Of a stretch of DNA of 64,000 nucleotides, positions 22,243 through 43,345 are shown one piece after another; the first letter of the stretch is position 1, and each line of letters opens with the position of its first letter. Origin of the DNA: Escherichia coli. GTDB lineage: Bacteria > Pseudomonadota > Gammaproteobacteria > Enterobacterales > Enterobacteriaceae. The stretch lies in NCBI RefSeq assembly GCF_030384885.1, contig NZ_CP128613.1, one strand, 5' to 3'. A program made the position numbers and the translations under genes. The notes beneath the pieces were generated by a model. That model did no database searches. It saw only the letters and a list, made by a program, of their open reading frames with translations, and was not told the DNA's origin.

Positions 22243-22576
22243 GTGTTCCCCGCGCCAGCGGGGATAAACCGAATACCCAGCGCTATTTCGAGCGCGAGAG
22301 AGTGTGTTCCCCGCGCCAGCGGGGATAAACCGGAAATTTCGGAAATTAAATCCGCTCGCGATCGGTGTTCCCCGCGCCAGCGGGGATAAACCCCATGGCA
22401 GGAAGAGCGGATGATTTAGGGGTAAGTGTTCCCCGCGCCAGCGGGGATAAACCGAAGCCGGATCACATTTTCTTAGCGGAGCTGACGTGTTCCCCGCGCC
22501 AGCGGGGATAAACCGCTCTCGGTTCTGGGGTACTGTTACCCATAACTGAGCTCCCCCGCGTCAGCGGGGGAACTCC
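22243..22576 (+). CRISPR. Type I-E CRISPR array next to cas2: 6 repeats (GTGTTCCCCGCGCCAGCGGGGATAAACCG; third ends in C; last degenerate) and 5 spacers of 32 bp
   Basis: Repeats read at 22243, 22304, 22365, 22426, 22487 and degenerate at 22548. Confidence 0.95.
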
Positions 22577-22597
22577 CAACTCCCATTTTCAAACGCC

Positions 22598-23635
22598 TCA
22601 TGACGCCTTCGCCAGTTCCTTCACCAGCGGTAGCATTATCCGCATAACGTCACGGCAGCGACGTTCTATTCTTCCAGGAAGCGCCTTATCAATATGCTGT
22701 TGATTATCAAGCCTTACATCATGCCAGCTATTTCCCGCCGGGAAGGCCGGTGTTTTTGCGCGTTGCTGATAACCATCCTTATTTCCAAGATTCCAGTTGG
22801 TCGCCTCCACCGAAAGTACCGCAATACCGGCTTTGTCGAAAACTTCTGCATCGTTACAACACCCAGTGCCTTTCGGATAGTTTTTATTCAAACCTGGATT
22901 TGTTGTCGCTGCAATCCCATGATTACGCGCAATTGCCAGCGCTCGATCACGGGTTAATTTCCTGACAGCCTCTGGTGTATTTACACCACTATTAAAATAC
23001 AATTTATCGCCAACAATTAAGTTATCGAGATTAATCACCAGCAGCGTATTTTTCTTTTCAGTATCGCTCATGCGCTTGAGTAAATTCTCAGCGCCTAATT
23101 TCCCTTCTTCTTCTCCACTGGTTGCCACAAAACGAATACCATACTCGGTAGGCGTATTTTTCAGACGTTCAGCCAGTTCCAGCATGACACCTAAACCTGC
23201 GGCGTTATCATCCATTCCTTGTAACGTCAGCCCGCCGAGATTGGCATCGGCGTCGGCATCGCTCAGTGGAGCGTACGTATCAAGATGCGCCATAATGATG
23301 ATCTGCTGCGGCGCTTTGCCTTCATGAGCGGCAATCACCGTACTTCCCGTCACGTTGTGCCAGTTTTTGCGGTTATCGCGGGCGGTGTAAATATATCGGC
23401 TATTAAATGTCCGAATATCACTGCGATAACCCATCTGTTGAAACTGTTGGCGAATATAATCGGCAGATAACATTTCTGCAGGAGTTCCGGTCATGCGTCC
23501 CGGAAAGAAAGTAGCAATATGTCGTGCCTGTGTATTAGCAAAATCACCAGGTTTAGGTGACGAGGCGTGTACGGGGAGAATAAAGCATACGCCGAGCGCC
23601 AGGGCAGCGGTACGGTGGCGCAATGCGGAAAACAT
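22598..23635 (-). CDS. iap: Alkaline phosphatase isozyme conversion aminopeptidase (345 aa)
   Basis: Full-length ORF with signal-peptide-like N-terminus; synteny cas2-CRISPR-iap-cysD. Confidence 0.9.
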   Translation of the reverse strand: MFSALRHRTAALALGVCFILPVHASSPKPGDFANTQARHIATFFPGRMTGTPAEMLSADYIRQQFQQMGYRSDIRTFNSRYIYTARDNRKNWHNVTGSTVIAAHEGKAPQQIIIMAHLDTYAPLSDADADANLGGLTLQGMDDNAAGLGVMLELAERLKNTPTEYGIRFVATSGEEEGKLGAENLLKRMSDTEKKNTLLVINLDNLIVGDKLYFNSGVNTPEAVRKLTRDRALAIARNHGIAATTNPGLNKNYPKGTGCCNDAEVFDKAGIAVLSVEATNWNLGNKDGYQQRAKTPAFPAGNSWHDVRLDNQQHIDKALPGRIERRCRDVMRIMLPLVKELAKAS

Positions 23636-32603: not shown

Positions 32604-32665
32604 ATCGGCGGAACCAGGCTTTTGCTTGAATGTTCCGTCAAGGGATCACGGGTAGGAGCCACCTT

Positions 32666-33658
32666 ATGAGTCAGAATACGCTGAAAGTTCATGATTTAAA
32701 TGAAGATGCGGAATTTGATGAGAACGGAGTTGAGGTTTTTGACGAAAAGGCCTTAGTAGAAGAGGAACCCAGTGATAACGATTTGGCCGAAGAGGAACTG
32801 TTATCGCAAGGGGCCACACAGCGTGTGTTGGACGCGACTCAGCTTTACCTTGGTGAGATTGGTTATTCACCACTGTTAACGGCCGAAGAAGAAGTTTATT
32901 TTGCGCGTCGCGCACTGCGAGGAGATGTTGCCTCCCGCCGCCGGATGATCGAGAGTAACTTGCGTCTGGTGGTAAAAATTGCCCGCCGTTATGGCAATCG
33001 TGGTCTGGCTTTGCTGGATCTTATCGAAGAGGGCAACCTGGGGCTGATCCGCGCGGTAGAGAAGTTTGACCCGGAACGTGGTTTCCGCTTCTCAACATAC
33101 GCAACCTGGTGGATTCGCCAGACGATCGAACGGGCGATTATGAACCAAACCCGTACTATTCGTTTGCCGATTCACATCGTAAAGGAGCTGAACGTTTACC
33201 TGCGAACCGCACGTGAGTTGTCCCATAAGCTGGACCACGAACCAAGTGCGGAAGAGATCGCAGAGCAGCTGGATAAGCCAGTTGATGACGTCAGCCGTAT
33301 GCTTCGTCTTAACGAGCGCATTACCTCGGTAGACACCCCGCTGGGTGGAGATTCCGAAAAAGCGTTGCTGGACATCCTGGCCGATGAAAAAGAAAACGGC
33401 CCGGAAGACACCACGCAAGATGACGATATGAAACAAAGCATCGTCAAATGGCTGTTCGAACTGAACGCCAAGCAGCGTGAAGTGCTGGCACGTCGATTCG
33501 GTTTGCTGGGATACGAAGCGGCAACACTGGAAGATGTAGGTCGTGAAATTGGCCTCACCCGTGAACGTGTTCGCCAGATTCAGGTTGAAGGCCTGCGCCG
33601 TTTGCGCGAAATCCTGCAAACGCAGGGGCTGAATATCGAAGCGCTGTTCCGCGAATAA
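32666..33658 (+). CDS. rpoS: RNA polymerase sigma factor RpoS (330 aa)
   Basis: Start [14 protein letters not shown] at ATG 32666; sigma-70 family regions; codon 33 is GAG. Confidence 0.95.
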
Positions 33659-34332: not shown

Positions 34333-34926
34333 ATGAAACTGATCGTCGGGATGACAGGGGCTACCGGTGCGCCTCTTGGTGTGGCATTACTGCAAGCGCT
34401 GCGGGAGATGCCGAATGTCGAGACTCATCTGGTGATGTCGAAGTGGGCGAAAACCACTATTGAACTGGAAACGCCTTACAGCGCTCGCGATGTTGCCGCC
34501 CTCGCTGACTTCAGCCATAACCCGGCAGATCAGGCTGCGACCATCTCTTCCGGCTCCTTTCGTACCGACGGCATGATCGTTATTCCATGCAGTATGAAAA
34601 CGCTCGCCGGTATCCGCGCTGGTTACGCCGATGGTCTCGTAGGGCGCGCGGCGGACGTCGTGCTCAAAGAAGGCCGCAAACTGGTGCTGGTGCCGCGTGA
34701 AATGCCGCTTAGCACCATCCATCTCGAAAATATGCTCGCACTTTCGCGCATGGGCGTGGCGATGGTGCCGCCGATGCCTGCCTTTTATAACCATCCCGAA
34801 ACGGTAGATGACATTGTCCACCACGTGGTAGCCCGCGTGCTGGATCAATTTGGCCTCGAACATCCTCACGCCAGGCGCTGGCAAGGGTTGCCGCAGGCCC
34901 GGAATTTTTCTCAGGAGAATGAATAA
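34333..34926 (+). CDS. ecdB: UbiX/Pad1-family flavin prenyltransferase (197 aa)
   Basis: N-terminus MKLIVGMTGATGA typical of UbiX. Confidence 0.85.
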   Translation: MKLIVGMTGATGAPLGVALLQALREMPNVETHLVMSKWAKTTIELETPYSARDVAALADFSHNPADQAATISSGSFRTDGMIVIPCSMKTLAGIRAGYADGLVGRAADVVLKEGRKLVLVPREMPLSTIHLENMLALSRMGVAMVPPMPAFYNHPETVDDIVHHVVARVLDQFGLEHPHARRWQGLPQARNFSQENE

Positions 34927-36353
34927 TGGCATTTGATGATTTACGCAGCTTCTTACAGGCGCTTGATGACCACGGCCAGTTACTGAAAATCAGCGAAGAG
35001 GTGAACGCGGAACCGGATCTGGCAGCCGCTGCCAACGCCACCGGGCGTATCGGCGACGGCGCGCCCGCGCTGTGGTTTGATAATATTCGCGGCTTTATCG
35101 ATGCCCGCGTTGCAATGAACACCATCGGTTCTTGGCAGAACCACGCAATTTCTCTCGGTCTGCCGCCAAACACCCCGGTTAAAAAACAGATTGATGAGTT
35201 TATCCGCCGCTGGGATAACTTCCCGATAGCCCCGGAGCGCCGTGCGAATCCTGCCTGGGCGCAGAACACCGTCGATGGCGACGAGATCAATTTGTTCAAT
35301 ATCCTGCCGCTGTTTCGTTTAAACGATGGCGATGGCGGTTTCTATCTCGACAAAGCGTGCGTGGTTTCCCGCGATCCGCTCGATCCGGATAACTTCGGCA
35401 AGCAGAACGTCGGCATCTATCGCATGGAAGTGAAGGGTAAGCGTAAGCTCGGCCTGCAACCGGTGCCGATGCACGATATCGCCCTGCATCTGCATAAAGC
35501 GGAAGAACGTGGTGAAGATTTGCCAATTGCCATCACGCTGGGTAACGATCCGATCATCACCCTGATGGGCGCCACCCCGCTGAAATATGATCAATCGGAG
35601 TACGAAATGGCGGGCGCGCTACGCGAAAGCCCGTACCCGATCGCCACCGCCCCGCTGACCGGTTTTGATGTGCCGTGGGGTTCAGAAGTGATCCTCGAAG
35701 GGGTTATCGAAAGCCGCAAACGTGAAATCGAAGGGCCGTTCGGTGAGTTTACCGGGCACTACTCCGGTGGGCGCAACATGACCGTAGTGCGCATCGATAA
35801 AGTCTCTTACCGCACCAAACCGATTTTTGAATCGCTCTATCTCGGCATGCCGTGGACCGAAATCGACTACCTGATGGGGCCTGCCACCTGCGTGCCGCTT
35901 TACCAGCAGTTGAAAGCCGAGTTCCCGGAAGTGCAGGCGGTGAACGCTATGTACACCCACGGCCTGCTGGCGATTATCTCCACCAAAAAACGCTATGGCG
36001 GCTTTGCCCGCGCAGTGGGCCTGCGTGCGATGACCACGCCGCACGGTCTGGGTTATGTGAAGATGGTGATTATGGTCGATGAAGACGTTGACCCGTTCAA
36101 CCTGCCGCAGGTGATGTGGGCGCTCTCGTCGAAAGTGAACCCGGCAGGCGATCTGGTGCAACTGCCAAATATGTCCGTGCTGGAACTCGACCCAGGCTCA
36201 AGCCCGGCGGGGATCACCGATAAGCTGATTATCGACGCCACCACGCCTGTCGCCCCGGACAACCGTGGTCACTACAGCCAGCCGGTGGTGGACTTACCGG
36301 AAACCAAAGCCTGGGCTGAAAAACTGACCGCTATGCTGGCCGCACGTAAATAA
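34926..36353 (+). CDS. ecdC: UbiD-family (prFMN-dependent) aromatic acid decarboxylase (475 aa)
   Basis: UbiD-like length and sequence; translationally coupled to the UbiX-like gene. Confidence 0.85.
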   Translation: MAFDDLRSFLQALDDHGQLLKISEEVNAEPDLAAAANATGRIGDGAPALWFDNIRGFIDARVAMNTIGSWQNHAISLGLPPNTPVKKQIDEFIRRWDNFPIAPERRANPAWAQNTVDGDEINLFNILPLFRLNDGDGGFYLDKACVVSRDPLDPDNFGKQNVGIYRMEVKGKRKLGLQPVPMHDIALHLHKAEERGEDLPIAITLGNDPIITLMGATPLKYDQSEYEMAGALRESPYPIATAPLTGFDVPWGSEVILEGVIESRKREIEGPFGEFTGHYSGGRNMTVVRIDKVSYRTKPIFESLYLGMPWTEIDYLMGPATCVPLYQQLKAEFPEVQAVNAMYTHGLLAIISTKKRYGGFARAVGLRAMTTPHGLGYVKMVIMVDEDVDPFNLPQVMWALSSKVNPAGDLVQLPNMSVLELDPGSSPAGITDKLIIDATTPVAPDNRGHYSQPVVDLPETKAWAEKLTAMLAARK

Positions 36354-36363
36354 GGAGAACAAG

Positions 36364-36600
36364 ATGATTTGTCCACGTTGTGCCGATGAACAGATTGAAG
36401 TGATGGCGAAATCGCCGGTGAAAAATGTCTGGACGGTCTACCAGTGCCAGCATTGCCTTTATACATGGCGCGATACTGAACCGCTACGTCGCACCAGCCG
36501 CGAACATTATCCCGAAGCCTTCCGTATGACGCAGAAAGATATTGATGACGCACCGATGGTGCCGAGCATTCCGCCGCTGCTGGCGGAAGGTAAGCGCTAA
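36364..36600 (+). CDS. ecdD: Small zinc-ribbon-like subunit of the decarboxylase (78 aa)
   Basis: CPRC...CQHC cysteine pairs; third gene of a three-gene operon. Confidence 0.75.
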   Translation: MICPRCADEQIEVMAKSPVKNVWTVYQCQHCLYTWRDTEPLRRTSREHYPEAFRMTQKDIDDAPMVPSIPPLLAEGKR

Positions 36601-36602
36601 AT

Positions 36603-36630
36603 AAAAGGTCCGATGCCCATCGGACCTTTT
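36603..36630. terminator. Bidirectional rho-independent terminator between ecdD and ygbN
   Basis: Perfect hairpin ggtccgatg / catcggacc flanked by an A-run upstream and T-run downstream. Confidence 0.8.
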
Positions 36631-36638
36631 TATTAAGG

Positions 36639-38003
36639 TCAAATTACCGCCCATACGCACCAGGTAATTAAGAATCCGGTAAAACCGAGAATGGTCGTTA
36701 ACACTGTCCAGGTTTTCAGACCGTCTGCTACCGACAACCCCAGATATTTGGTCACAATCCAGAACCCTGAGTCATTAATATGTGACGCGCCAAGCCCACC
36801 AAAGCAGGCTGCCAGCGTCACCAATACGCACTGAATCGGATTCAATCCCATCACAGCTTCTGAGAGTAACCCGCCGGTTGTCAGGATTGCTACGGTTGCT
36901 GACCCCTGCGATGCACGCAGCGCCAGTGAAATAATAAATGCGGCTGGTAACAGAGGCAGGTCAATCATTTGTAGCATGTTGGCAAGGGCTTTGCCGACGC
37001 CCGATTCCACCAGCACTTTGCCAAATACCCCTCCAGCACCAGTAACCAAAATCACTACCGCCGCAGTGGGAAGGGCTGAGCCCATAATGTCGCTGGTGTG
37101 TTGTAAGCTCCAGCCGCGACGTAAAGCCAATAACCAGAATGCCAGCACCAGCGCAATCATTAGAGCTACCATTGGTGAGCCGATCAGCTGTAGCGTACCA
37201 AGCAGGGGATGCGAAGGCGGCATCAGTGTTGCGGAAACCGTACCCGCCATGATAATCGCGATAGGAATAACAATTAGCGAGGTGACCAGCGCGACGCCCG
37301 GTGGATTTATTTTATCGCTTAATTTTGTCGCGCCTTCCTCACTGGCCGGAGCCAGTTGCATCTGTTCCAGTACTTCCACCGACATCGCATATTGGCGCTT
37401 ATTGATTATTTTCGCTGCAAAGTAGCCAACAATCCCTACGGGAATAGAAATCGCAATACCGATGATGGTTAGCCAGCCGATGTCTGCGTGGAGTAACCCC
37501 GCTGCGGCGACAGGGCCTGGATGCGGCGGTACCGCCACATGAACAGTTAGCATGATTCCAGCGACAGGCAGGCCAAATTTGAGTGGCGATATTTTGGCAA
37601 CCTTGGCAAAACCGTAAATGATTGGCGCAAGAATAATAAAGCCGACATCAAAGAAGACGGGAATACCGAGGAAGAACGCTGCCAGAGTCAGCGCAGCGAT
37701 AGTTCGTTTGTCACCTAACTTGCGACTGAAATAATTAGCCAGTGACTCTGCACCACCAGAGTGTTCGATCATACGCCCCAGCATAGCGCCCAGACCAATA
37801 ATAATAGTGACGGAACCAAGCACACCGCCCATCCCGGCGATCATCACTTTACCCACTTCGCCCGCCGGTATACCCGCCGCAAGTGCGACTAACAGGCTGA
37901 CGAGGAGCAGAGCAACGAATGGTTGTACCTTTGCCTTGATGACCAGCAGCAACAGCATGATTACGCCAGTTAACGCAATGCATAACAATGTAATTGTGGA
38001 CAT
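36639..38003 (-). CDS. ygbN: GntP-family permease (454 aa)
   Basis: Multi-TM ORF; synteny with ygbMLKJ. Confidence 0.88.
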   Translation of the reverse strand: MSTITLLCIALTGVIMLLLLVIKAKVQPFVALLLVSLLVALAAGIPAGEVGKVMIAGMGGVLGSVTIIIGLGAMLGRMIEHSGGAESLANYFSRKLGDKRTIAALTLAAFFLGIPVFFDVGFIILAPIIYGFAKVAKISPLKFGLPVAGIMLTVHVAVPPHPGPVAAAGLLHADIGWLTIIGIAISIPVGIVGYFAAKIINKRQYAMSVEVLEQMQLAPASEEGATKLSDKINPPGVALVTSLIVIPIAIIMAGTVSATLMPPSHPLLGTLQLIGSPMVALMIALVLAFWLLALRRGWSLQHTSDIMGSALPTAAVVILVTGAGGVFGKVLVESGVGKALANMLQMIDLPLLPAAFIISLALRASQGSATVAILTTGGLLSEAVMGLNPIQCVLVTLAACFGGLGASHINDSGFWIVTKYLGLSVADGLKTWTVLTTILGFTGFLITWCVWAVI

Positions 38004-38091
38004 GGGAAACCCTGTCTGAAAGTTATAGTTAACCTACCCCATCCGTAGATGGGGGGATGTATGGGTACGTTGTAATTAGGGATTTAACGAA

Positions 38092-38868
38092 TTAGCGCCA
38101 GGCGTCAAACCAGCCAAGCCCTTCTTCGGTGAGGCCACGAGGTTTATATTCACAACCGATCCAGCCCTGATATCCCACCTCATCGAACAGGCGGAACAGC
38201 CACGGATAGTTGATTTCTCCATCGTCCGGTTCATGTCGATCAGGTAGTCCGGCAATTTGTACGTGCGCATATTTCCCGGCGTAATCGCGGATTAAATGTG
38301 TCAGGTTGCCATCTACTTTTTGCGCATGGAAAGTATCTAGTTGAATAAACACGTTATCTCGCGCAACCTCTTCAACAATAGCCAGTGCCTGATACTGGCT
38401 GGAGAAGAGATAATGAGGCTTAACGCCGGGGCTGAGTGCTTCAACCAATATTCGCTTGCCGTGTGGCGCAAAGCGGTCGGCAGCGTAGCGGAGATTATCA
38501 ATAAATACTGCCCGGTACCGTTCAGCATCTTCGCCAGCGGGCACGACGCCTGCCATCACATGGACTTGTTCACAATTGAGCGCCAATGCATATTCCAGTG
38601 CCAGGTCGATGTCTGCGCGTGCTTCGTGCTCACGTCCAGGAAGGGCGGATAATCCCCATTCTCCCGCATTAATATCTCCGGGAGCGGTATTGAACAGCGC
38701 CAGTGTCAGATGGTTTTGCACCAGTTGCTTTTGGATTTGCAGGGGGGAGTAGTCATAGGGAAACAGAAATTCCACAGCATCGAACCCGGCTTTTCGCGCT
38801 GCGGCGAAGCGTTCAATAAAAGGCACTTCGGTGAACATCATGGATAAATTAGCTGCAAAACGAGGCAT
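38092..38868 (-). CDS. ygbM: Hydroxypyruvate-isomerase-like TIM-barrel protein, putative 2-oxo-tetronate isomerase (258 aa)
   Basis: Xylose-isomerase-like TIM barrel family; synteny. Confidence 0.85.
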
Positions 38869-38872
38869 TGCA

Positions 38873-39511
38873 TTAACTCCTTAATTCCGCAATTTCACCT
38901 GCGGTCAGATAACGGATCGGGCGGTCACCGAGAATAAAAATCAGCTTTGCCGTTTCCTCCAGCTCTTCCATATTGTTGGCGGCTTCTTGCAGGCTTTCAC
39001 CGCAAACCACTGGGCCATGATTTGCCAGTAAAAAAGCCTGATTGTCTGCTGCCAGTTCCGCCAGATCCTGTGCGATGCGTTTATCGCCCGGTCGGTAATA
39101 GGGCACCAGCGGGACATTACCCATCCGCATCACCACGTATGGTGTGAACGGCCGAATAACGTTATTGCTGTCCAGCCCTTCCAGGCAGGAAAGCGCCGTC
39201 GACCACGTACTGTGCAAATGCACTACCGCTTTACAGCGCGGATTGTTGCGATACAGCGCCAGATGAAAGAGCACCTCTTTCGAGGGTTTGTCACCACTTA
39301 ACCATTCGCCATCCACGGCGACTTTGGAAAGCCGCTGCGGATCGAGATTGCCCAGGCATGAACCTGTCGGTGTCGCCAGTAAATTCCCATCAGGTAAAAG
39401 CAGCGACAGATTGCCAGCCGAACCGGTTGCATAGCCGCGCTGAAAGAATGAACTGGCAATCCGCGTCATCTCCTCTCGCAAAGACTGCTCTACTTTTGCG
39501 AAATCGCTCAT
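38873..39511 (-). CDS. ygbL: Class II aldolase/adducin-family protein, putative 3-oxo-tetronate 4-phosphate decarboxylase (212 aa)
   Basis: Class II aldolase family; synteny. Confidence 0.85.
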
Positions 39512-40770
39512 GATAAAAACTCTCTTTGGGCTCGTGAAAAAAAGGCTTCATCACCGAAGTTGCCAGATTTAAGGGCGAGTGAGACAGGCTTATCCAGTGC
39601 GTTTACCCACGGCACGCCGGGGGAAATGGTTGGGCCAATATGAAACCCTTTTATTCCCAGGCTCTGTGTGACTACGCCGGAGGTCTCACCGCCTGCGACA
39701 ATAAAGCGTGTCACGCCTTCCGCTGCTAACTGCGCCGCTAGTTGAGAAAACAGTGTTTCTACTGCCTGACTGGCTTTTTGTGCACCGTATTGCTGTTGAA
39801 TTGCTGCCAATGCGTCAGTGCTGGCGGTGGCAAAAACCAGTGGAGCAAGTACACTTTCCTGGCCCAGAACCCACTCTGCCAGCTCGTGTGCATAAGCGGC
39901 CAGAGTTTCAATTGAGAGGCAGCGTGCAACATCAACTTCACGGGCTGGTGCAATTTGACGGTAATGTGCCACCTGGCGGTTGGTCATTTGAGAGCATGAA
40001 CCGGAGAGCACTACGCCGCGCCCTGCGAGCGGACGCCCTGCTTCGCGAGCCTGGTTACCATTTTCTTGCGCCCACTGCCGGGCCAGGCCAATTGCCAGAC
40101 CAGAACCGCCCGTTACCAGTGGGGCATCGCGCAAGGCTTCCCCCTGAATTTCCAGATGGTGTTCGGTCAGCGCATCAAGCACCGCGTAGCGATAGCCCTC
40201 TTGCTGTAAGCGAGCCAGCTCCTGACGAACGGCTTTCACACCTTGTTCGAAAACATGTGCTGAAACGACGCCGCAGCGCCCTGTGGATTGCGCTTCAACC
40301 AGACGGGGAAGATAGCTGTCGGTCATGGGATTTACCGGGTGATGGCGCATCCCGGATTCGGCCAGCAGTTGATTCATTACGAACAAATACCCCTGATAAA
40401 CCGTACGTCCGTTGACCGGCAGGGCCGGAGAGAAGACCGTAAACGGCGTGTCGAGAGCATCCATTAATGCATCGGTAACCGGGCCGATATTACCTTTCGC
40501 CGTACTGTCGAAAGTAGAGCAGTATTTGAAATAGATCTGTTTGCAACCTTGCTGTTGCAACCAGCTCAGAGCCGCCAGCGATTGCTGTGTGGCTTCAACC
40601 ACCGGACAGGAGCGCGTTTTCAGGCTGATCACCAGTGCGTCGATTGCTTCCGGCATTTTACCTGTTGGAACACCGTTAATTTGTACCGTTGGTAGACCGT
40701 TTTCCACCAGAAAACTGGCGATATCCGTCGCGCCGGTAAAATCATCGGCGATAACGCCAATCTTGATCAT
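39508..40770 (-). CDS. ygbK: DUF1537-family four-carbon acid-sugar kinase (420 aa)
   Basis: N-terminus MIKIGVIADDFTGATD typical of the family. Confidence 0.85.
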   Translation of the reverse strand: MIKIGVIADDFTGATDIASFLVENGLPTVQINGVPTGKMPEAIDALVISLKTRSCPVVEATQQSLAALSWLQQQGCKQIYFKYCSTFDSTAKGNIGPVTDALMDALDTPFTVFSPALPVNGRTVYQGYLFVMNQLLAESGMRHHPVNPMTDSYLPRLVEAQSTGRCGVVSAHVFEQGVKAVRQELARLQQEGYRYAVLDALTEHHLEIQGEALRDAPLVTGGSGLAIGLARQWAQENGNQAREAGRPLAGRGVVLSGSCSQMTNRQVAHYRQIAPAREVDVARCLSIETLAAYAHELAEWVLGQESVLAPLVFATASTDALAAIQQQYGAQKASQAVETLFSQLAAQLAAEGVTRFIVAGGETSGVVTQSLGIKGFHIGPTISPGVPWVNALDKPVSLALKSGNFGDEAFFSRAQREFLS

Positions 40771-41675
40771 GATTTCGCTCCCGGTAGAGTGATGCCAGAG
40801 AAAATCTTGATAACTGCGCTATCGTCTTCTTTCCCGTAACCCGCGTTACTGGCGCTGGTGAACATATTCAATGCTGTTGAGGCCAATGGCAGCGGAAAGT
40901 GCAGGGCTTTGGCTGTATCGGCAACCAGACCAAGATCCTTAACAAAAATATCGACGGCTGAATGCGGGGTGTAATCGCCATCCACCACATGACGCATCCG
41001 GTTTTCGAACATCCAGGAATTTCCGGCGGCATTGGTCACGACGTCATACATCACATCCAGCGGGATCCCCGCACGGGCTGCAAGTGCCATCGCTTCGGCT
41101 CCGGCAGCAATATGTACGCCCGCTAACAACTGGTGAATAATTTTTACGGTCGAACCTAGTCCCGGTTCTGCACCTATGCGATAAACTTTTCCGGCAACGG
41201 CTTCCAGCACGGGTGCCAGTCGTTCAAAGGCAATATCGCTACCGGAGGCCATGACAGTCATTTCACCGTTAGCGGCTTTTACTGCACCACCAGAAACTGG
41301 CGCATCCAGCATTTCCAGATCGAATCCAGCCAGAGCGGTAGCAATTTCTTGCGCATCAGCACTGGCGATAGTGGAAGAAACCATTACTGCCGTACCGGGT
41401 TTCAGATGTTGTGCAACGCCTGTTTCACCAAACAGCACCTGTTTAACCTGGGCCGCATTGACCACCAGCACCAGCAGAGCGTCCAGTTTTTCGGCAAACG
41501 TCGCGGCGTTATCAGAAACCCCGCAAGCACCTGCCTCTTTCAACGTAGCGCAGGCATTGCTGTTTAGGTCTGCGCCCCAGGTAGAAAGACCTGCGCGGAC
41601 ACATGACAGTGCTGCTCCCATTCCCATTGACCCTAAGCCAACGATACCGACATGAAACTCAGATCCCGTTTTCAT
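40767..41675 (-). CDS. ygbJ: NAD-dependent 3-hydroxyisobutyrate-dehydrogenase-like enzyme, putative L-threonate dehydrogenase (302 aa)
   Basis: N-terminal GxGxMG Rossmann motif (VGIVGLGSMG). Confidence 0.85.
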   Translation of the reverse strand: MKTGSEFHVGIVGLGSMGMGAALSCVRAGLSTWGADLNSNACATLKEAGACGVSDNAATFAEKLDALLVLVVNAAQVKQVLFGETGVAQHLKPGTAVMVSSTIASADAQEIATALAGFDLEMLDAPVSGGAVKAANGEMTVMASGSDIAFERLAPVLEAVAGKVYRIGAEPGLGSTVKIIHQLLAGVHIAAGAEAMALAARAGIPLDVMYDVVTNAAGNSWMFENRMRHVVDGDYTPHSAVDIFVKDLGLVADTAKALHFPLPLASTALNMFTSASNAGYGKEDDSAVIKIFSGITLPGAKS

Positions 41676-41870
41676 CTGCTCTCCTTGTTAATTTAAGTGA
41701 TATTTTGTTTGATAATGTGAATATAAGCGCTGGAAGATAACGATATGGTGAGCTGATTCACAAAAATTAACATTGTGTGTTATTTTATGTGAACTAAGCG
41801 TTAGTTGCGCCGCGCACGTTTCGCAGGCAAATAGCGTAGAATGTCAGCAGGACAAAGGAAGGAGCAAAAG

Positions 41871-42638
41871 TTGATACCCGTAGAGCGTCGCCAAATCATC
41901 CTTGAGATGGTAGCTGAAAAAGGCATTGTCAGTATTGCTGAACTAACGGACAGAATGAATGTGTCACATATGACCATTCGTCGGGATTTACAAAAACTGG
42001 AGCAGCAGGGAGCCGTTGTGCTGGTGTCCGGAGGCGTCCAGTCTCCGGGACGCGTGGCGCATGAACCTTCTCATCAGGTAAAAACTGCGCTGGCAATGAC
42101 GCAAAAAGCGGCTATTGGCAAGCTGGCGGCAAGTCTTGTTCAGCCGGGAAGTTGTATCTATCTGGATGCGGGAACGACCACGCTAGCGATAGCACAGCAT
42201 CTGATTCACATGGAGTCACTGACTGTGGTCACAAACGATTTCGTTATTGCGGACTACTTGCTCGACAACAGTAATTGCACAATTATTCACACTGGCGGTG
42301 CAGTATGTCGGGAAAACCGTTCCTGTGTCGGGGAAGCCGCTGCGACCATGCTGCGCAGCCTGATGATTGATCAGGCTTTTATTTCTGCATCGTCATGGAG
42401 TGTGCGGGGGATTTCTACGCCAGCGGAAGATAAAGTCACGGTGAAACGGGCGATTGCCAGTGCCAGCCGCCAGCGAGTTTTGGTCTGTGATGCGACGAAA
42501 TATGGTCAGGTGGCGACATGGCTGGCGTTACCATTAAGCGAGTTTGATCAGATTATTACAGACGACGGTTTGCCGGAGAGTGCCAGTCGCGCGCTGGCGA
42601 AGCAGGATCTCTCTTTGCTGGTAGCGAAAAATGAATAA
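41871..42638 (+). CDS. ygbI: DeoR-family transcriptional regulator (255 aa)
   Basis: Probable TTG start at 41871 with aaggaaggag SD; DeoR HTH N-terminus. Confidence 0.8.
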   Translation: MIPVERRQIILEMVAEKGIVSIAELTDRMNVSHMTIRRDLQKLEQQGAVVLVSGGVQSPGRVAHEPSHQVKTALAMTQKAAIGKLAASLVQPGSCIYLDAGTTTLAIAQHLIHMESLTVVTNDFVIADYLLDNSNCTIIHTGGAVCRENRSCVGEAAATMLRSLMIDQAFISASSWSVRGISTPAEDKVTVKRAIASASRQRVLVCDATKYGQVATWLALPLSEFDQIITDDGLPESASRALAKQDLSLLVAKNE

Positions 42639-42688
42639 TGGCCTGCAATAACACCGGGTTACTCATGCTTCACAGAAGAAGCATGAGA

Positions 42689-43345
42689 CTACTTTATTTT
42701 ATAAAATGACAGGCGCCCACTTTCCGGCGAACCGGTATCAATATAAACCTGGTTGGCGAATGTCTGGATGTTATCAAACATCATATGTCCGAAGATAAAG
42801 CAGTCGGCGCCGTTTATTTCCTGTAACTCGCCTTTGAGCGATTTCAGTACGCGATCAACAGGCCAGAGCAATTCTCTCTCCGCTATTTCTTTGCCAAAGA
42901 GATATTCATTCCCCGGATAATCTGCATGCGCGATGACATATTTTATTATGTCGTTAGTGATTTAAACAATATGCGGAAGATTATGAAAACGTAGCAACAG
43001 GTCTATTGCTTCTTTTTGTTCCGTATCACTTAACTCAAAGAACCAGTCGCCACCACTGGCAAGCCACATATTGCCATCGCCGGTCGCGAACGCATCCAAT
43101 GCCATCGCTTCATGGTTGCCTTTGACCGATGTAAACCAGGGCTGGTTTAGCAGGCGCAGCACGTTAAGACTCTCCGGCCCACGATCAATATTATCGCCGA
43201 CAGAAATAAGTAAGTCGGTTTCAGGGCAAAAAGAGAGTTGATGTAAGCGGGATTGTAATAATTGATAGTCACCATGAATATCACCAACGGCCCATATATG
43301 GCGATAGTGATGGGCATTAATTTTTTGATAGCGTGTAGATGGCAT
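42689..43345 (-). pseudogene. pphB: Serine/threonine protein phosphatase 2 (lambda-phosphatase-like PPP family) interrupted by an in-frame TAA at 42962-42964
   Basis: Track ORFs 42962..43345 and 42689..42871 are in the same frame; N-part carries GDIHG, GDNIDRG and GNHE motifs, C-part carries the remaining histidine motifs; total 219 codons. Confidence 0.8.

What the first reader, a model, noticed from the sequence alone, without database searches (positions are those of the whole stretch)
38004..38091. Perfect palindrome CCCCATC-CGTA-GATGGGG between ygbM and ygbN
An 18-bp perfect inverted repeat at about 38037-38054 lies in the short gap between two co-directional genes of the acid-sugar operon, immediately upstream of the ygbN start. 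It could be an internal operator, an RNA hairpin affecting transporter expression, or a processing site.
Basis: seen in the sequence. Interest (0 to 1): 0.25.

Follow-up and report, generated by a model that had tools for sequence, protein, structure and literature searches.

The report
Conserved mRNA hairpin between ygbM and ygbN
The small inverted repeat between ygbM and ygbN is real and is most likely a conserved RNA hairpin in the operon's messenger RNA that sets the transporter's mRNA level apart from that of the enzyme genes, which is an ordinary, well-known kind of element.

Summary
The genes lie on the minus strand. On their mRNA it reads CCCCAUC-UACG-GAUGGGG, 37 nt after the ygbM stop and 33 nt before the ygbN AUG, with no U-tract.

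Alone it is barely beyond chance (p about 0.05). Comparison makes it credible. All nine independent lineages with a ygbM-ygbN junction have a stem-loop in this gap (combined p about 9e-9). The sequences are unrelated, and in most lineages the stem ends 27-33 nt before the AUG. One related sequence shows a compensatory C-G to U-A change and a U-A to U.G change. Across 4591 E. coli genomes, hairpin plus leader are nearly invariant while the adjacent spacer varies.

Published ChIP-exo finds YgbI only at ygbI/ygbJ, so the operator reading fails. Published ygbI-deletion RNA-seq shows all five genes derepressed, with about threefold fewer reads per kb on ygbN than ygbM.

Best reading: an intercistronic protective stem-loop, a 3' exonuclease barrier for ygbJKLM mRNA. 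A 5'-leader role for ygbN is the main rival. It is a new member of a known kind, of low interest.

The parts
38037..38054 (-). Stem-loop as a whole. On the mRNA it reads CCCCAUC-UACG-GAUGGGG: 7 bp (5 G-C, 2 A-U) with a 4-nt loop. dG is -12.7 kcal/mol on the sense strand and -10.9 on the antisense strand.
38048..38054 (-). 5' arm on the mRNA (CCCCAUC). It is preceded by two spare C (38055-38056), so the G5/G6 run-length variants seen in 15 genomes leave the stem intact.
38044..38047 (-). Loop UACG closed by C-G, a UNCG-type tetraloop on the sense strand only. The loop sequence is not conserved in orthologues.
38037..38043 (-). 3' arm on the mRNA (GAUGGGG). It is followed by UAGGUUAACU, which is not a U-tract.
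38004..38036 (-). 33-nt leader between the hairpin and the ygbN AUG. It is G-poor and carries a Shine-Dalgarno-like AGGG at 38010-38013. Together with the hairpin it is invariant in E. coli and E. albertii; E. marmotae has one change in the leader.
38055..38091 (-). 37-nt spacer after the ygbM stop. It is C-rich and G-poor (12 C, 2 G). This is where all the sampled Escherichia SNPs in the gap fall.
38092..38868 (-). ygbM (otnI), 2-oxo-tetronate isomerase, the last enzyme gene.
36639..38003 (-). ygbN, a GntP-family transporter and the last gene of the cluster.
38873..41675 (-). ygbL/otnC, ygbK/otnK and ygbJ/ltnD. Their junctions overlap by 4 nt (J/K and K/L) or leave a 4-nt gap (L/M), so the 88-nt ygbM-ygbN gap is the only sizeable untranslated gap in the cluster.
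41676..41840 (.). Divergent ygbI/ygbJ control region. In K-12 it holds the only YgbI ChIP-exo site. It has no sequence in common with the hairpin gap.

Best explanation
The repeat is a short stem-loop that forms in the sense-strand ygbJKLMN mRNA, in the only long untranslated gap of the cluster. Selection keeps the structure, not the sequence.

It has no U-tract, so it lets transcription run on into ygbN. Its most likely job is to block 3'-to-5' exonucleases (PNPase, RNase II). When the ygbN part of the transcript is lost, by RNase E cleavage in the unstructured leader or by Rho-dependent termination inside ygbN, degradation stops at the hairpin. That leaves a stable ygbJKLM mRNA. The result is more enzyme mRNA than transporter mRNA from one YgbI-controlled promoter.

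Shown here: the structure, its conservation, its strand bias, the absence of a U-tract and of YgbI binding, and co-derepression of all five genes with a step-down at this junction. Inferred: the nuclease barrier itself and where the 3' ends come from.
For: 1. A stem-loop is present in the ygbM-ygbN gap of all nine independent lineages: Escherichia, L087, L086, L088, Entomohabitans/L085, Serratia, Pantoea, Gallibacterium and Actinobacillus. The stems are unrelated in sequence. Best single hairpin against 400 dinucleotide shuffles per gap gives a Fisher combined p of about 9e-9.

2. L087 is alignable with E. coli. All 7 pairs are kept through one double change (C-G to U-A) and one U-A to U.G change, while the loop changes at 3 of 4 positions.

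3. Of the twelve sequences compared, the sense-strand fold is more stable than the antisense fold in eight, equal in three and less stable only in L085. G.U pairs occur in L087, L088, Entomohabitans, Pantoea and Actinobacillus.

4. Eight of nine lineages have no U-tract after the stem, and the terminator scan calls nothing here.

5. Within E. coli, the 58 nt covering AUG, leader and hairpin are identical in 4579 of 4591 genomes. The adjacent 58 nt are identical in only 3322 of 4591. About 20 genomes differ in or next to the hairpin, and 15 of those are a G6-to-G5 run-length change outside the stem.

6. Gao et al. 2021 (PMC8464067) report a single YgbI site, at ygbI/ygbJ, yet all five genes are derepressed in the ygbI deletion. 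DESeq2 baseMean values are 842, 927, 284, 306 and 176 for ygbJ, K, L, M and N. Dividing by gene length (my arithmetic) gives about 394 per kb for ygbM and about 129 per kb for ygbN.

7. The kind is established. [quoted passage not shown] Stem-loops without U-tracts protect Rho-dependent 3' ends (PMC6061677).
Against: - No 3' end has been mapped here. The one 3'-end map I could search (Adams 2021) has none at this junction, but the operon is silent in those conditions.
- The threefold step is taken from per-gene counts in one K-12 data set, not from coverage at nucleotide resolution. An intrinsically unstable transporter mRNA could produce it equally well.
- The hairpin keeps a fixed distance from the ygbN AUG (27-33 nt). 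Where the gap is longer (L088, L085, Serratia) the extra length lies upstream of the hairpin. That ties the hairpin to ygbN's start rather than to ygbM's end, which a pure 3' barrier does not require.
- Some orthologous stems are weak (-8.6 and -9.6 kcal/mol).
- The E. coli hairpin alone is only p about 0.05.
Confidence: 0.45

Rival explanations
1. The hairpin belongs to the ygbN 5' leader. There are two versions. In the first, as in papBA, RNase E cuts just upstream and the hairpin becomes a 5'-terminal structure that shields ygbN mRNA. In the second, it insulates the ygbN ribosome-binding region from upstream RNA and sits at the edge of the ribosome's footprint.
For: - The hairpin's 3' end lies 33, 33, 33, 33, 33, 33, 32, 30, 30 and 27 nt before the AUG in ten of twelve sequences, about six of the nine independent lineages. 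The gaps range from 83 to 223 nt and the extra length always lies upstream.
- Hairpin and leader are conserved as one block in 4579 of 4591 E. coli genomes.
- The spacer upstream is unstructured, A/U/C-rich and free to vary.
- The papBA-type mechanism is documented (PMC5927463).
Against: - ygbN has about threefold fewer reads per kb than ygbM. In papBA-type cases the downstream gene is the more abundant one.
- No RNase E site has been mapped.
- The spacing may simply be inherited among Enterobacterales.
- Pantoea (78 nt) and Actinobacillus (19 nt, with a true terminator shape) break the pattern.
Confidence: 0.25
2. The hairpin is a transcriptional attenuator or pause signal. It would slow or partly stop RNA polymerase between ygbM and ygbN, possibly with Rho loading on the C-rich spacer, so that fewer polymerases enter ygbN.
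For: - The step-down in counts falls at this junction.
- In E. coli the spacer upstream is C-rich and G-poor (12 C, 2 G of 37), which is rut-like.
- Actinobacillus has a canonical terminator shape with a U-tract at this junction, and the Pantoea stem is followed by CUGUUUGU.
Against: - Eight of nine lineages lack a U-tract, and the terminator scan finds nothing here.
- ygbN is still derepressed about 15-fold from the single YgbI-controlled promoter, so read-through is substantial.
- C-richness of the spacer is not conserved. Entomohabitans and Gallibacterium are A/U-rich there.
Confidence: 0.1
3. The repeat is a DNA-level palindrome bound by a dimeric protein, acting as an internal operator for YgbI or another regulator.
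For: - It is a perfect 7-bp inverted repeat with a short spacer, a common operator shape.
- Two rare mobile-element insertions abut it, which might point to a DNA-level peculiarity.
Against: - YgbI ChIP-exo gives one site genome-wide, at ygbI/ygbJ.
- No word of 7 nt or more is shared with that region.
- Half-site sequences are unrelated among orthologues, while pairing is kept, in part through G.U pairs that would be A.C mismatches on the other strand.
- There is no second copy in the window or in E. coli genomes.
Confidence: 0.03
4. It is a chance hairpin with no function of its own. The conservation in E. coli would then reflect the ygbN translation start region and the recent common ancestry of the genomes.
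For: - The E. coli hairpin alone gives p of about 0.05, with about 0.06 comparable hairpins expected per gap.
- E. coli genomes are close relatives.
- Only one informative homologous sequence (L087) bears on covariation, and 78 of 500 shuffles reach the observed score.
Against: - Hairpins recur in all nine independent lineages with unrelated stems (combined p about 9e-9).
- Their distance to the AUG clusters tightly.
- All three stem substitutions in L087 keep the pairing.
Confidence: 0.1

Closest known systems
Protective 3' stem-loops ('decay terminators') inside operons: the malE-malF intergenic structure, the puf intercistronic stem-loop, and the E. coli set of Dar & Sorek 2018 (PMC5927463)
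   Same: A stable stem-loop at the boundary between a more abundant upstream segment and a less abundant downstream one. The structure is conserved between species. It does not stop transcription.
   Different: - The malE-malF element is a multi-copy REP. This hairpin is single-copy and only 18 nt long.
- Most structures in the Dar & Sorek set lie inside the downstream coding region, on average 107 nt in. This one is intergenic.
- No 3' end or nuclease dependence has been measured here.
Stem-loops without U-tracts that protect the 3' ends of Rho-terminated transcripts (Dar & Sorek 2018, PMC6061677)
   Same: An energetically stable stem-loop, not followed by U-rich sequence, lying downstream of a stop codon.
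   Different: - Those mark the ends of transcription units. Here transcription continues into ygbN.
- That paper places rut sites just downstream of the structure. In E. coli the C-rich stretch is upstream of this hairpin.
papBA-type 5' hairpin exposed by RNase E cleavage (described in PMC5927463)
   Same: An intercistronic hairpin a short, fixed distance upstream of the downstream gene's start, with unstructured A/U-rich RNA upstream.
   Different: In papBA the downstream gene ends up more abundant. Here ygbN has about one third of ygbM's reads per kb.
Intrinsic (Rho-independent) terminator or attenuator
   Same: A G+C-rich stem with a short loop after a stop codon.
   Different: There is no U-tract (tail UAGGUUAACU) and the consensus scan does not call it. 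ygbN is co-derepressed with the upstream genes.
C(UNCG)G extra-stable tetraloop hairpins, noted in phage T4 intercistronic regions (Tuerk et al. 1988; recalled from memory, not checked here)
   Same: The E. coli sense strand has C-UACG-G. The folding parameters give it about 1.8 kcal/mol over the antisense version.
   Different: The loop is not conserved. L087 has UCAC, and the others have CGGGA, UGA, ACGC or UUU. Only L086 has UUCG, closed by G-C.
Partial terminator between gntK and gntU in the E. coli gntRKU cluster, a kinase gene followed by a GntP-family transporter gene (recalled from memory; the primary papers are not in the library)
   Same: An enzyme gene followed by a GntP-family transporter gene, with an intercistronic structure reported to lower transporter expression.
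   Different: Not compared at sequence level here, so this is a lead only.

Membership tests
Intrinsic terminator | G+C-rich stem-loop | tested here: met
   A 7-bp stem with 5 G-C pairs and dG -12.7 kcal/mol.
Intrinsic terminator | Run of U immediately 3' of the stem | tested here: not met
   The tail is UAGGUUAACU. The scan of 36400-42000 lists no site here. Eight of nine lineages lack a U-tract.
Protective 3' stem-loop in differential operon decay | Stable structure at the boundary between a more abundant upstream and a less abundant downstream segment of one transcript | tested here: inconclusive
   The hairpin sits at the junction. Published per-gene counts give about 394 reads per kb for ygbM and about 129 for ygbN, with all genes derepressed from one YgbI site. 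No nucleotide-resolution coverage was available.
Protective 3' stem-loop in differential operon decay | Structure conserved in orthologous operons | tested here: met
   All nine independent lineages have one, Fisher p about 9e-9. There is one compensatory pair and one G.U change in L087.
Protective 3' stem-loop in differential operon decay | Steady-state RNA 3' end just downstream of the stem, dependent on PNPase or RNase II | not testable with these tools
   The Adams 2021 3'-end tables list no end at this junction, but the operon is repressed in those conditions. The Dar & Sorek supplements are not held.
papBA-type 5' protective hairpin | Downstream gene more stable or abundant than the upstream gene | tested here: not met
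   ygbN has about one third of ygbM's reads per kb. This rests on one data set of per-gene counts.
papBA-type 5' protective hairpin | RNase E cleavage just upstream of the hairpin | not testable with these tools
   No cleavage map covers this silent operon.
REP / BIME repeated palindromes | Many copies per genome sharing a consensus of about 35 nt | tested here: not met
   There is one place per genome in 4591 genomes. The window holds no other copy within 2 mismatches; two chance-level 3-mismatch matches are no more than the shuffles give. The element is only 18 nt long.
YgbI (DeoR-family) operator | Bound by YgbI in vivo | tested here: not met
   Published ChIP-exo found a single site, between ygbI and ygbJ.
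YgbI (DeoR-family) operator | Shares the sequence motif of the known site and keeps it in orthologues | tested here: not met
   No shared word of 7 nt or more. The arm sequences are unrelated among orthologues.
C(UNCG)G tetraloop hairpin | UNCG loop closed by C-G | tested here: met
   The sense strand has C-UACG-G. The antisense strand has C-CGUA-G.
C(UNCG)G tetraloop hairpin | Loop kept by selection in relatives | tested here: not met
   L087 has UCAC. Only L086 has UUCG, and there it is closed by G-C.
Any curated Rfam family | Match to a covariance model | tested here: not met
   Nothing was found at the hairpin at E <= 10 in 36000-43000. The only hit lies elsewhere and is below threshold.
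CsrA binding hairpin | GGA presented in the loop, and conserved | tested here: not met
   In E. coli the GGA straddles the loop and the stem. Among orthologues only Entomohabitans has GGA in the loop. The definition of the motif is from memory.

The most novel reading that the evidence does not exclude
The hairpin is locked in position relative to the ygbN start. It sits 27-33 nt upstream in Enterobacterales and in one Pasteurellaceae lineage, despite complete turnover of its sequence. It might therefore be a dedicated control device for this GntP-type transporter. One possibility is a structure that a protein or the ribosome reads by shape and distance (standby site, insulator or anti-polarity element). 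Another is a DNA or RNA structure that also attracts mobile-element insertion, since two independent insertions abut it.
Probability: 0.12. Interest if true: 0.4.

Novelty: new member of a known kind. Interest (0 to 1): 0.2.

Why it matters
If the reading is right, it explains how one YgbI-controlled promoter gives more mRNA for the four acid-sugar (L-threonate / D-erythronate) enzymes than for the membrane transporter. It also suggests that the database split into ygbJK, ygbLM and ygbN units should be one operon with an internal RNA boundary. It adds one more example to a well-described class and changes no general picture. Its practical value is for anyone engineering or inducing this cluster: removing or strengthening the stem should shift the enzyme-to-transporter ratio.

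Tried and rejected
- **Rfam scan** (E <= 10) of 36000-43000: nothing at the hairpin.
- **Promoter and terminator scan**: no internal promoter for ygbN on the minus strand in the gap and no terminator call at the hairpin.
- **YgbI operator**: rejected on ChIP-exo, motif comparison and lack of sequence conservation.
- **Repeated element (REP, BIME or other)**: rejected because it is single-copy.
- **RNase III site**: rejected because a 7-bp stem is far shorter than the roughly two helical turns that enzyme needs (general knowledge, not tested).
- **CsrA site**: GGA is not in the loop and is not conserved.
- **Alternative pairing in the leader**: a small hairpin that would hide the Shine-Dalgarno and AUG (GACAGGG/CCC-UGUC), and pairing of the 3' arm with the CCCAU before the AUG. 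Neither is kept in L087, so both were dropped.
- **RNase E motif RN|WUU**: one match (AC|UUU) lies in the leader, but about 1.4 are expected by chance in 88 nt (my arithmetic), so it is not evidence.
- **3'-end maps**: Adams 2021 has nothing at this junction, which is uninformative because the operon is silent. The Dar & Sorek NAR supplements are not held. The Guzman 2019 supplements have no ygb entries.
- **Protein searches**: two searches were flooded by near-identical E. coli sequences and added no lineages. The search with the Entomohabitans orthologue gave the useful extra loci.
- **Column-by-column covariation across all orthologues**: not possible, because the hairpins are out of register and not homologous in sequence. 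Only Escherichia plus L087 could be counted.
- **Listing the 22 E. coli genomes that differ near the hairpin**: A guessed G5 query then accounted for 15 of them.

Full report
**What is there.** The window is an E. coli rpoS-side segment that is not K-12. The acid-sugar cluster lies on the minus strand: ygbJ/ltnD 40767-41675, ygbK/otnK 39508-40770, ygbL/otnC 38873-39511, ygbM/otnI 38092-38868 and ygbN 36639-38003. ygbI is divergent at 41841-42638. The repeat finder gives arms 38037-38043 (CCCCATC) and 38048-38054 (GATGGGG), perfectly complementary and 4 nt apart. The centre CGTA is not self-complementary, so this is a 7+4+7 stem-loop and not an 18-bp palindrome. On the transcribed strand it reads CCCCAUC-UACG-GAUGGGG. 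It starts 37 nt after the ygbM stop and ends 33 nt before the ygbN AUG. The other junctions of the cluster overlap by 4 nt or leave only 4 nt, so this 88-nt gap is the one place where the mRNA is free of ribosomes.

**Is it more than chance?** Taken alone, hardly.
- Shuffled sequence gives 27 +/- 6 perfect 7-bp inverted repeats with short loops per 64 kb.
- Compact hairpins of dG <= -12 kcal/mol occur at 0.72 per kb per strand outside the CRISPR arrays, about 0.06 per 88-nt gap.
- Shuffling the gap itself gives p of about 0.05.
- The 108-nt region as a whole folds no better than shuffles (z = -1.2).

**Comparative evidence.** A scan of one genome per species with YgbM, followed by look-ups of YgbN relatives, gave twelve sequences in which ygbM is directly followed by a ygbN orthologue. 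These are the window's E. coli, E. albertii, E. marmotae, four unnamed assemblies (L085-L088), Entomohabitans, Serratia, Pantoea, Gallibacterium and Actinobacillus. YgbN identity to E. coli runs from 45 to 99%. They represent nine independent lineages.
- Every gap contains a stem-loop, and the stem sequences are unrelated. The best single hairpin per gap against 400 dinucleotide shuffles, in the nine independent lineages, gives p from 0.0025 to 0.11 and a Fisher combined p of about 9e-9.
- The distance from the hairpin's 3' end to the AUG is 33 nt in six sequences, then 32, 30, 30 and 27 nt. The outliers are Pantoea (78 nt) and Actinobacillus (19 nt, a true terminator shape). The gaps range from 83 to 223 nt, and the extra length always lies upstream of the hairpin.
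- By my own arithmetic, six of eight independent lineages (counting Escherichia and L087 as one here) falling in a 7-nt window has a probability of about 2e-5 under uniform placement. The window was chosen after seeing the data and the lineages share ancestry, so this is indicative only.
- Where ygbM is followed by another enzyme gene instead (Salmonella diarizonae, L004), the gap is about 40 nt.

**RNA rather than DNA.** L087 (YgbN 88% identical, also next to rpoS) aligns with E. coli across the gap. Its hairpin CCUCAUC-UCAC-GGUGAGG keeps all seven pairs through one double change (C-G to U-A) and one U-A to U.G change, while three of four loop bases differ. With a single divergent sequence the shuffle control is weak (78 of 500). 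Across the twelve sequences, the sense-strand fold is more stable than the antisense fold in eight, equal in three and less stable only in L085. G.U pairs would be A.C mismatches on the other strand. L085, the exception, has a gap that also carries a pseudogene remnant. The UACG loop closed by C-G is a UNCG-type tetraloop on the sense strand only, but it is not conserved, so it is not the selected feature.

**Within E. coli.**
- 4591 of 5426 complete genomes carry the locus, always as a single copy.
- In the sampled sequences, all SNPs inside E. coli and E. albertii fall in the 37-nt spacer upstream of the hairpin. E. marmotae has one change in the leader.
- The 58 nt covering AUG, leader and hairpin are identical in 4579 genomes. 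The neighbouring 58 nt are identical in only 3322. Much of that difference is one clade-level pair of SNPs, so genome counts overstate the number of events.
- About 20 genomes differ within 38035-38056. Fifteen of them carry a G6-to-G5 run-length change that leaves the stem intact.

**What it is not.**
- It is not an intrinsic terminator. The tail is UAGGUUAACU, the scan calls nothing here, and eight of nine lineages lack a U-tract.
- It is not a YgbI operator. ChIP-exo in K-12 found one YgbI site in the genome, between ygbI and ygbJ (PMC8464067). The gap shares no word of 7 nt or more with that region, and the arms are not conserved in sequence.
- It is not a repeated element.
- It is not a curated RNA family.

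**How it most likely works.** In the ygbI deletion of Gao et al., all five genes rise. The log2 fold changes are 5.55, 5.15, 5.09, 4.62 and 3.95 for ygbJ, K, L, M and N, with baseMean 842, 927, 284, 306 and 176. With only one YgbI site, the simplest reading is one transcript that runs through the hairpin. The paper itself, following the database units ygbJK, ygbLM and ygbN, calls the effect on ygbLM and ygbN indirect. Dividing baseMean by gene length (my arithmetic) gives about 926, 794, 444, 394 and 129 per kb. The largest step (0.33) is at the ygbM-ygbN gap. A second step (0.56) is at ygbK-ygbL. There, K-12 alone has a 91-nt untranslated gap created by a 1-nt deletion in ygbK. Both steps therefore coincide with ribosome-free RNA.

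This fits the documented class of protective structures in differentially decaying operons, and of stem-loops without U-tracts that stop PNPase and RNase II at Rho-dependent 3' ends (PMC5927463; PMC6061677). My best reading is as follows. The ygbN segment is lost more often, by endonuclease entry or Rho action in or after the gap, and exonucleases then stop at the hairpin. That leaves stable ygbJKLM mRNA. The nuclease steps are inferred, not shown.

**The main rival.** The fixed distance to the AUG, and the conservation of hairpin plus leader as one block, would follow more naturally if the hairpin belonged to ygbN's leader. It could be a 5' cap-like structure after RNase E cleavage (papBA type), or an insulator at the edge of the ribosome's footprint. 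The lower abundance of ygbN argues against the papBA pattern but does not exclude an insulating role. The available data do not separate the two, and both belong to the same known kind. Attenuation or pausing, a DNA-level site and pure chance get small weights.

Noticed in passing
window 38035-38038; L001 (NZ_AP042673.1, strain OkiPb01711): A Mu-like prophage of about 38.8 kb (com and mom genes at its end) is inserted in the ygbM-ygbN gap. Its junction touches the first bases of the hairpin arm. The hairpin stays with ygbM, and ygbN is cut off from the operon.
   Followed up: partly
window 38055/38056; L090 (NZ_CM177011.1, strain VL40): An IS1 element is inserted 2 nt from the other edge of the hairpin. 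These two are the only interruptions of 37900-38200 among 4591 genomes, and both abut the hairpin. That may be coincidence or a DNA-level target preference.
   Followed up: partly
window 39508-40770 against L002 6704-7870 (K-12): K-12 ygbK/otnK lacks one C at CDS position 1148. This shifts the frame, giving 388 aa instead of the 420 aa encoded here, and opens a 91-nt untranslated gap before ygbL. That gap coincides with a second step-down in the published K-12 RNA-seq counts.
   Followed up: partly
window 38092-38868: RefSeq names ygbM 'HPr family phosphocarrier protein' through model NF007441. The protein also passes the cut-off of NF043033 (2-oxo-tetronate isomerase) and has the AP_endonuc_2 fold family, so the HPr name looks like a labelling slip.
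   Followed up: partly
window 34333-36600: A UbiX-like flavoprotein gene (34333-34926), a UbiD-like decarboxylase gene (34926-36353) and a 78-aa ORF lie between rpoS (32630-33658) and ygbN. In K-12, rpoS sits directly next to ygbN.
   Followed up: partly
window about 280-1800 and 22247-22600: There are two arrays of a 61-nt period whose repeat carries the hairpin TCCCCGC-N4-GCGGGGA. They look like CRISPR arrays and dominate the window's count of short inverted repeats.
   Followed up: no
window 36600-36652: An inverted repeat (arms from 36606, AGGTCCG...) lies between the convergent ends of the 78-aa ORF and ygbN and is probably a shared terminator. The weak Rfam hit there (cyano_het_sRNA, 20.6 bits against a cut-off of 35.7) is chance.
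   Followed up: no
L085 1278-1500: In this relative of Entomohabitans the gap is 223 nt long. It holds a short remnant resembling the start of the gene that follows ygbM in Salmonella diarizonae (ATGCA.AT.ATCAT.ACCGGCGGGGGCGGC). Its hairpin has an A.C mismatch, so the junction may be decaying.
   Followed up: no
L010 3775-4500 (Yersinia pekkanenii): Only fragments of ygbN remain after ygbM (residues 1-102 and 400-454), so it is a pseudogene.
   Followed up: no
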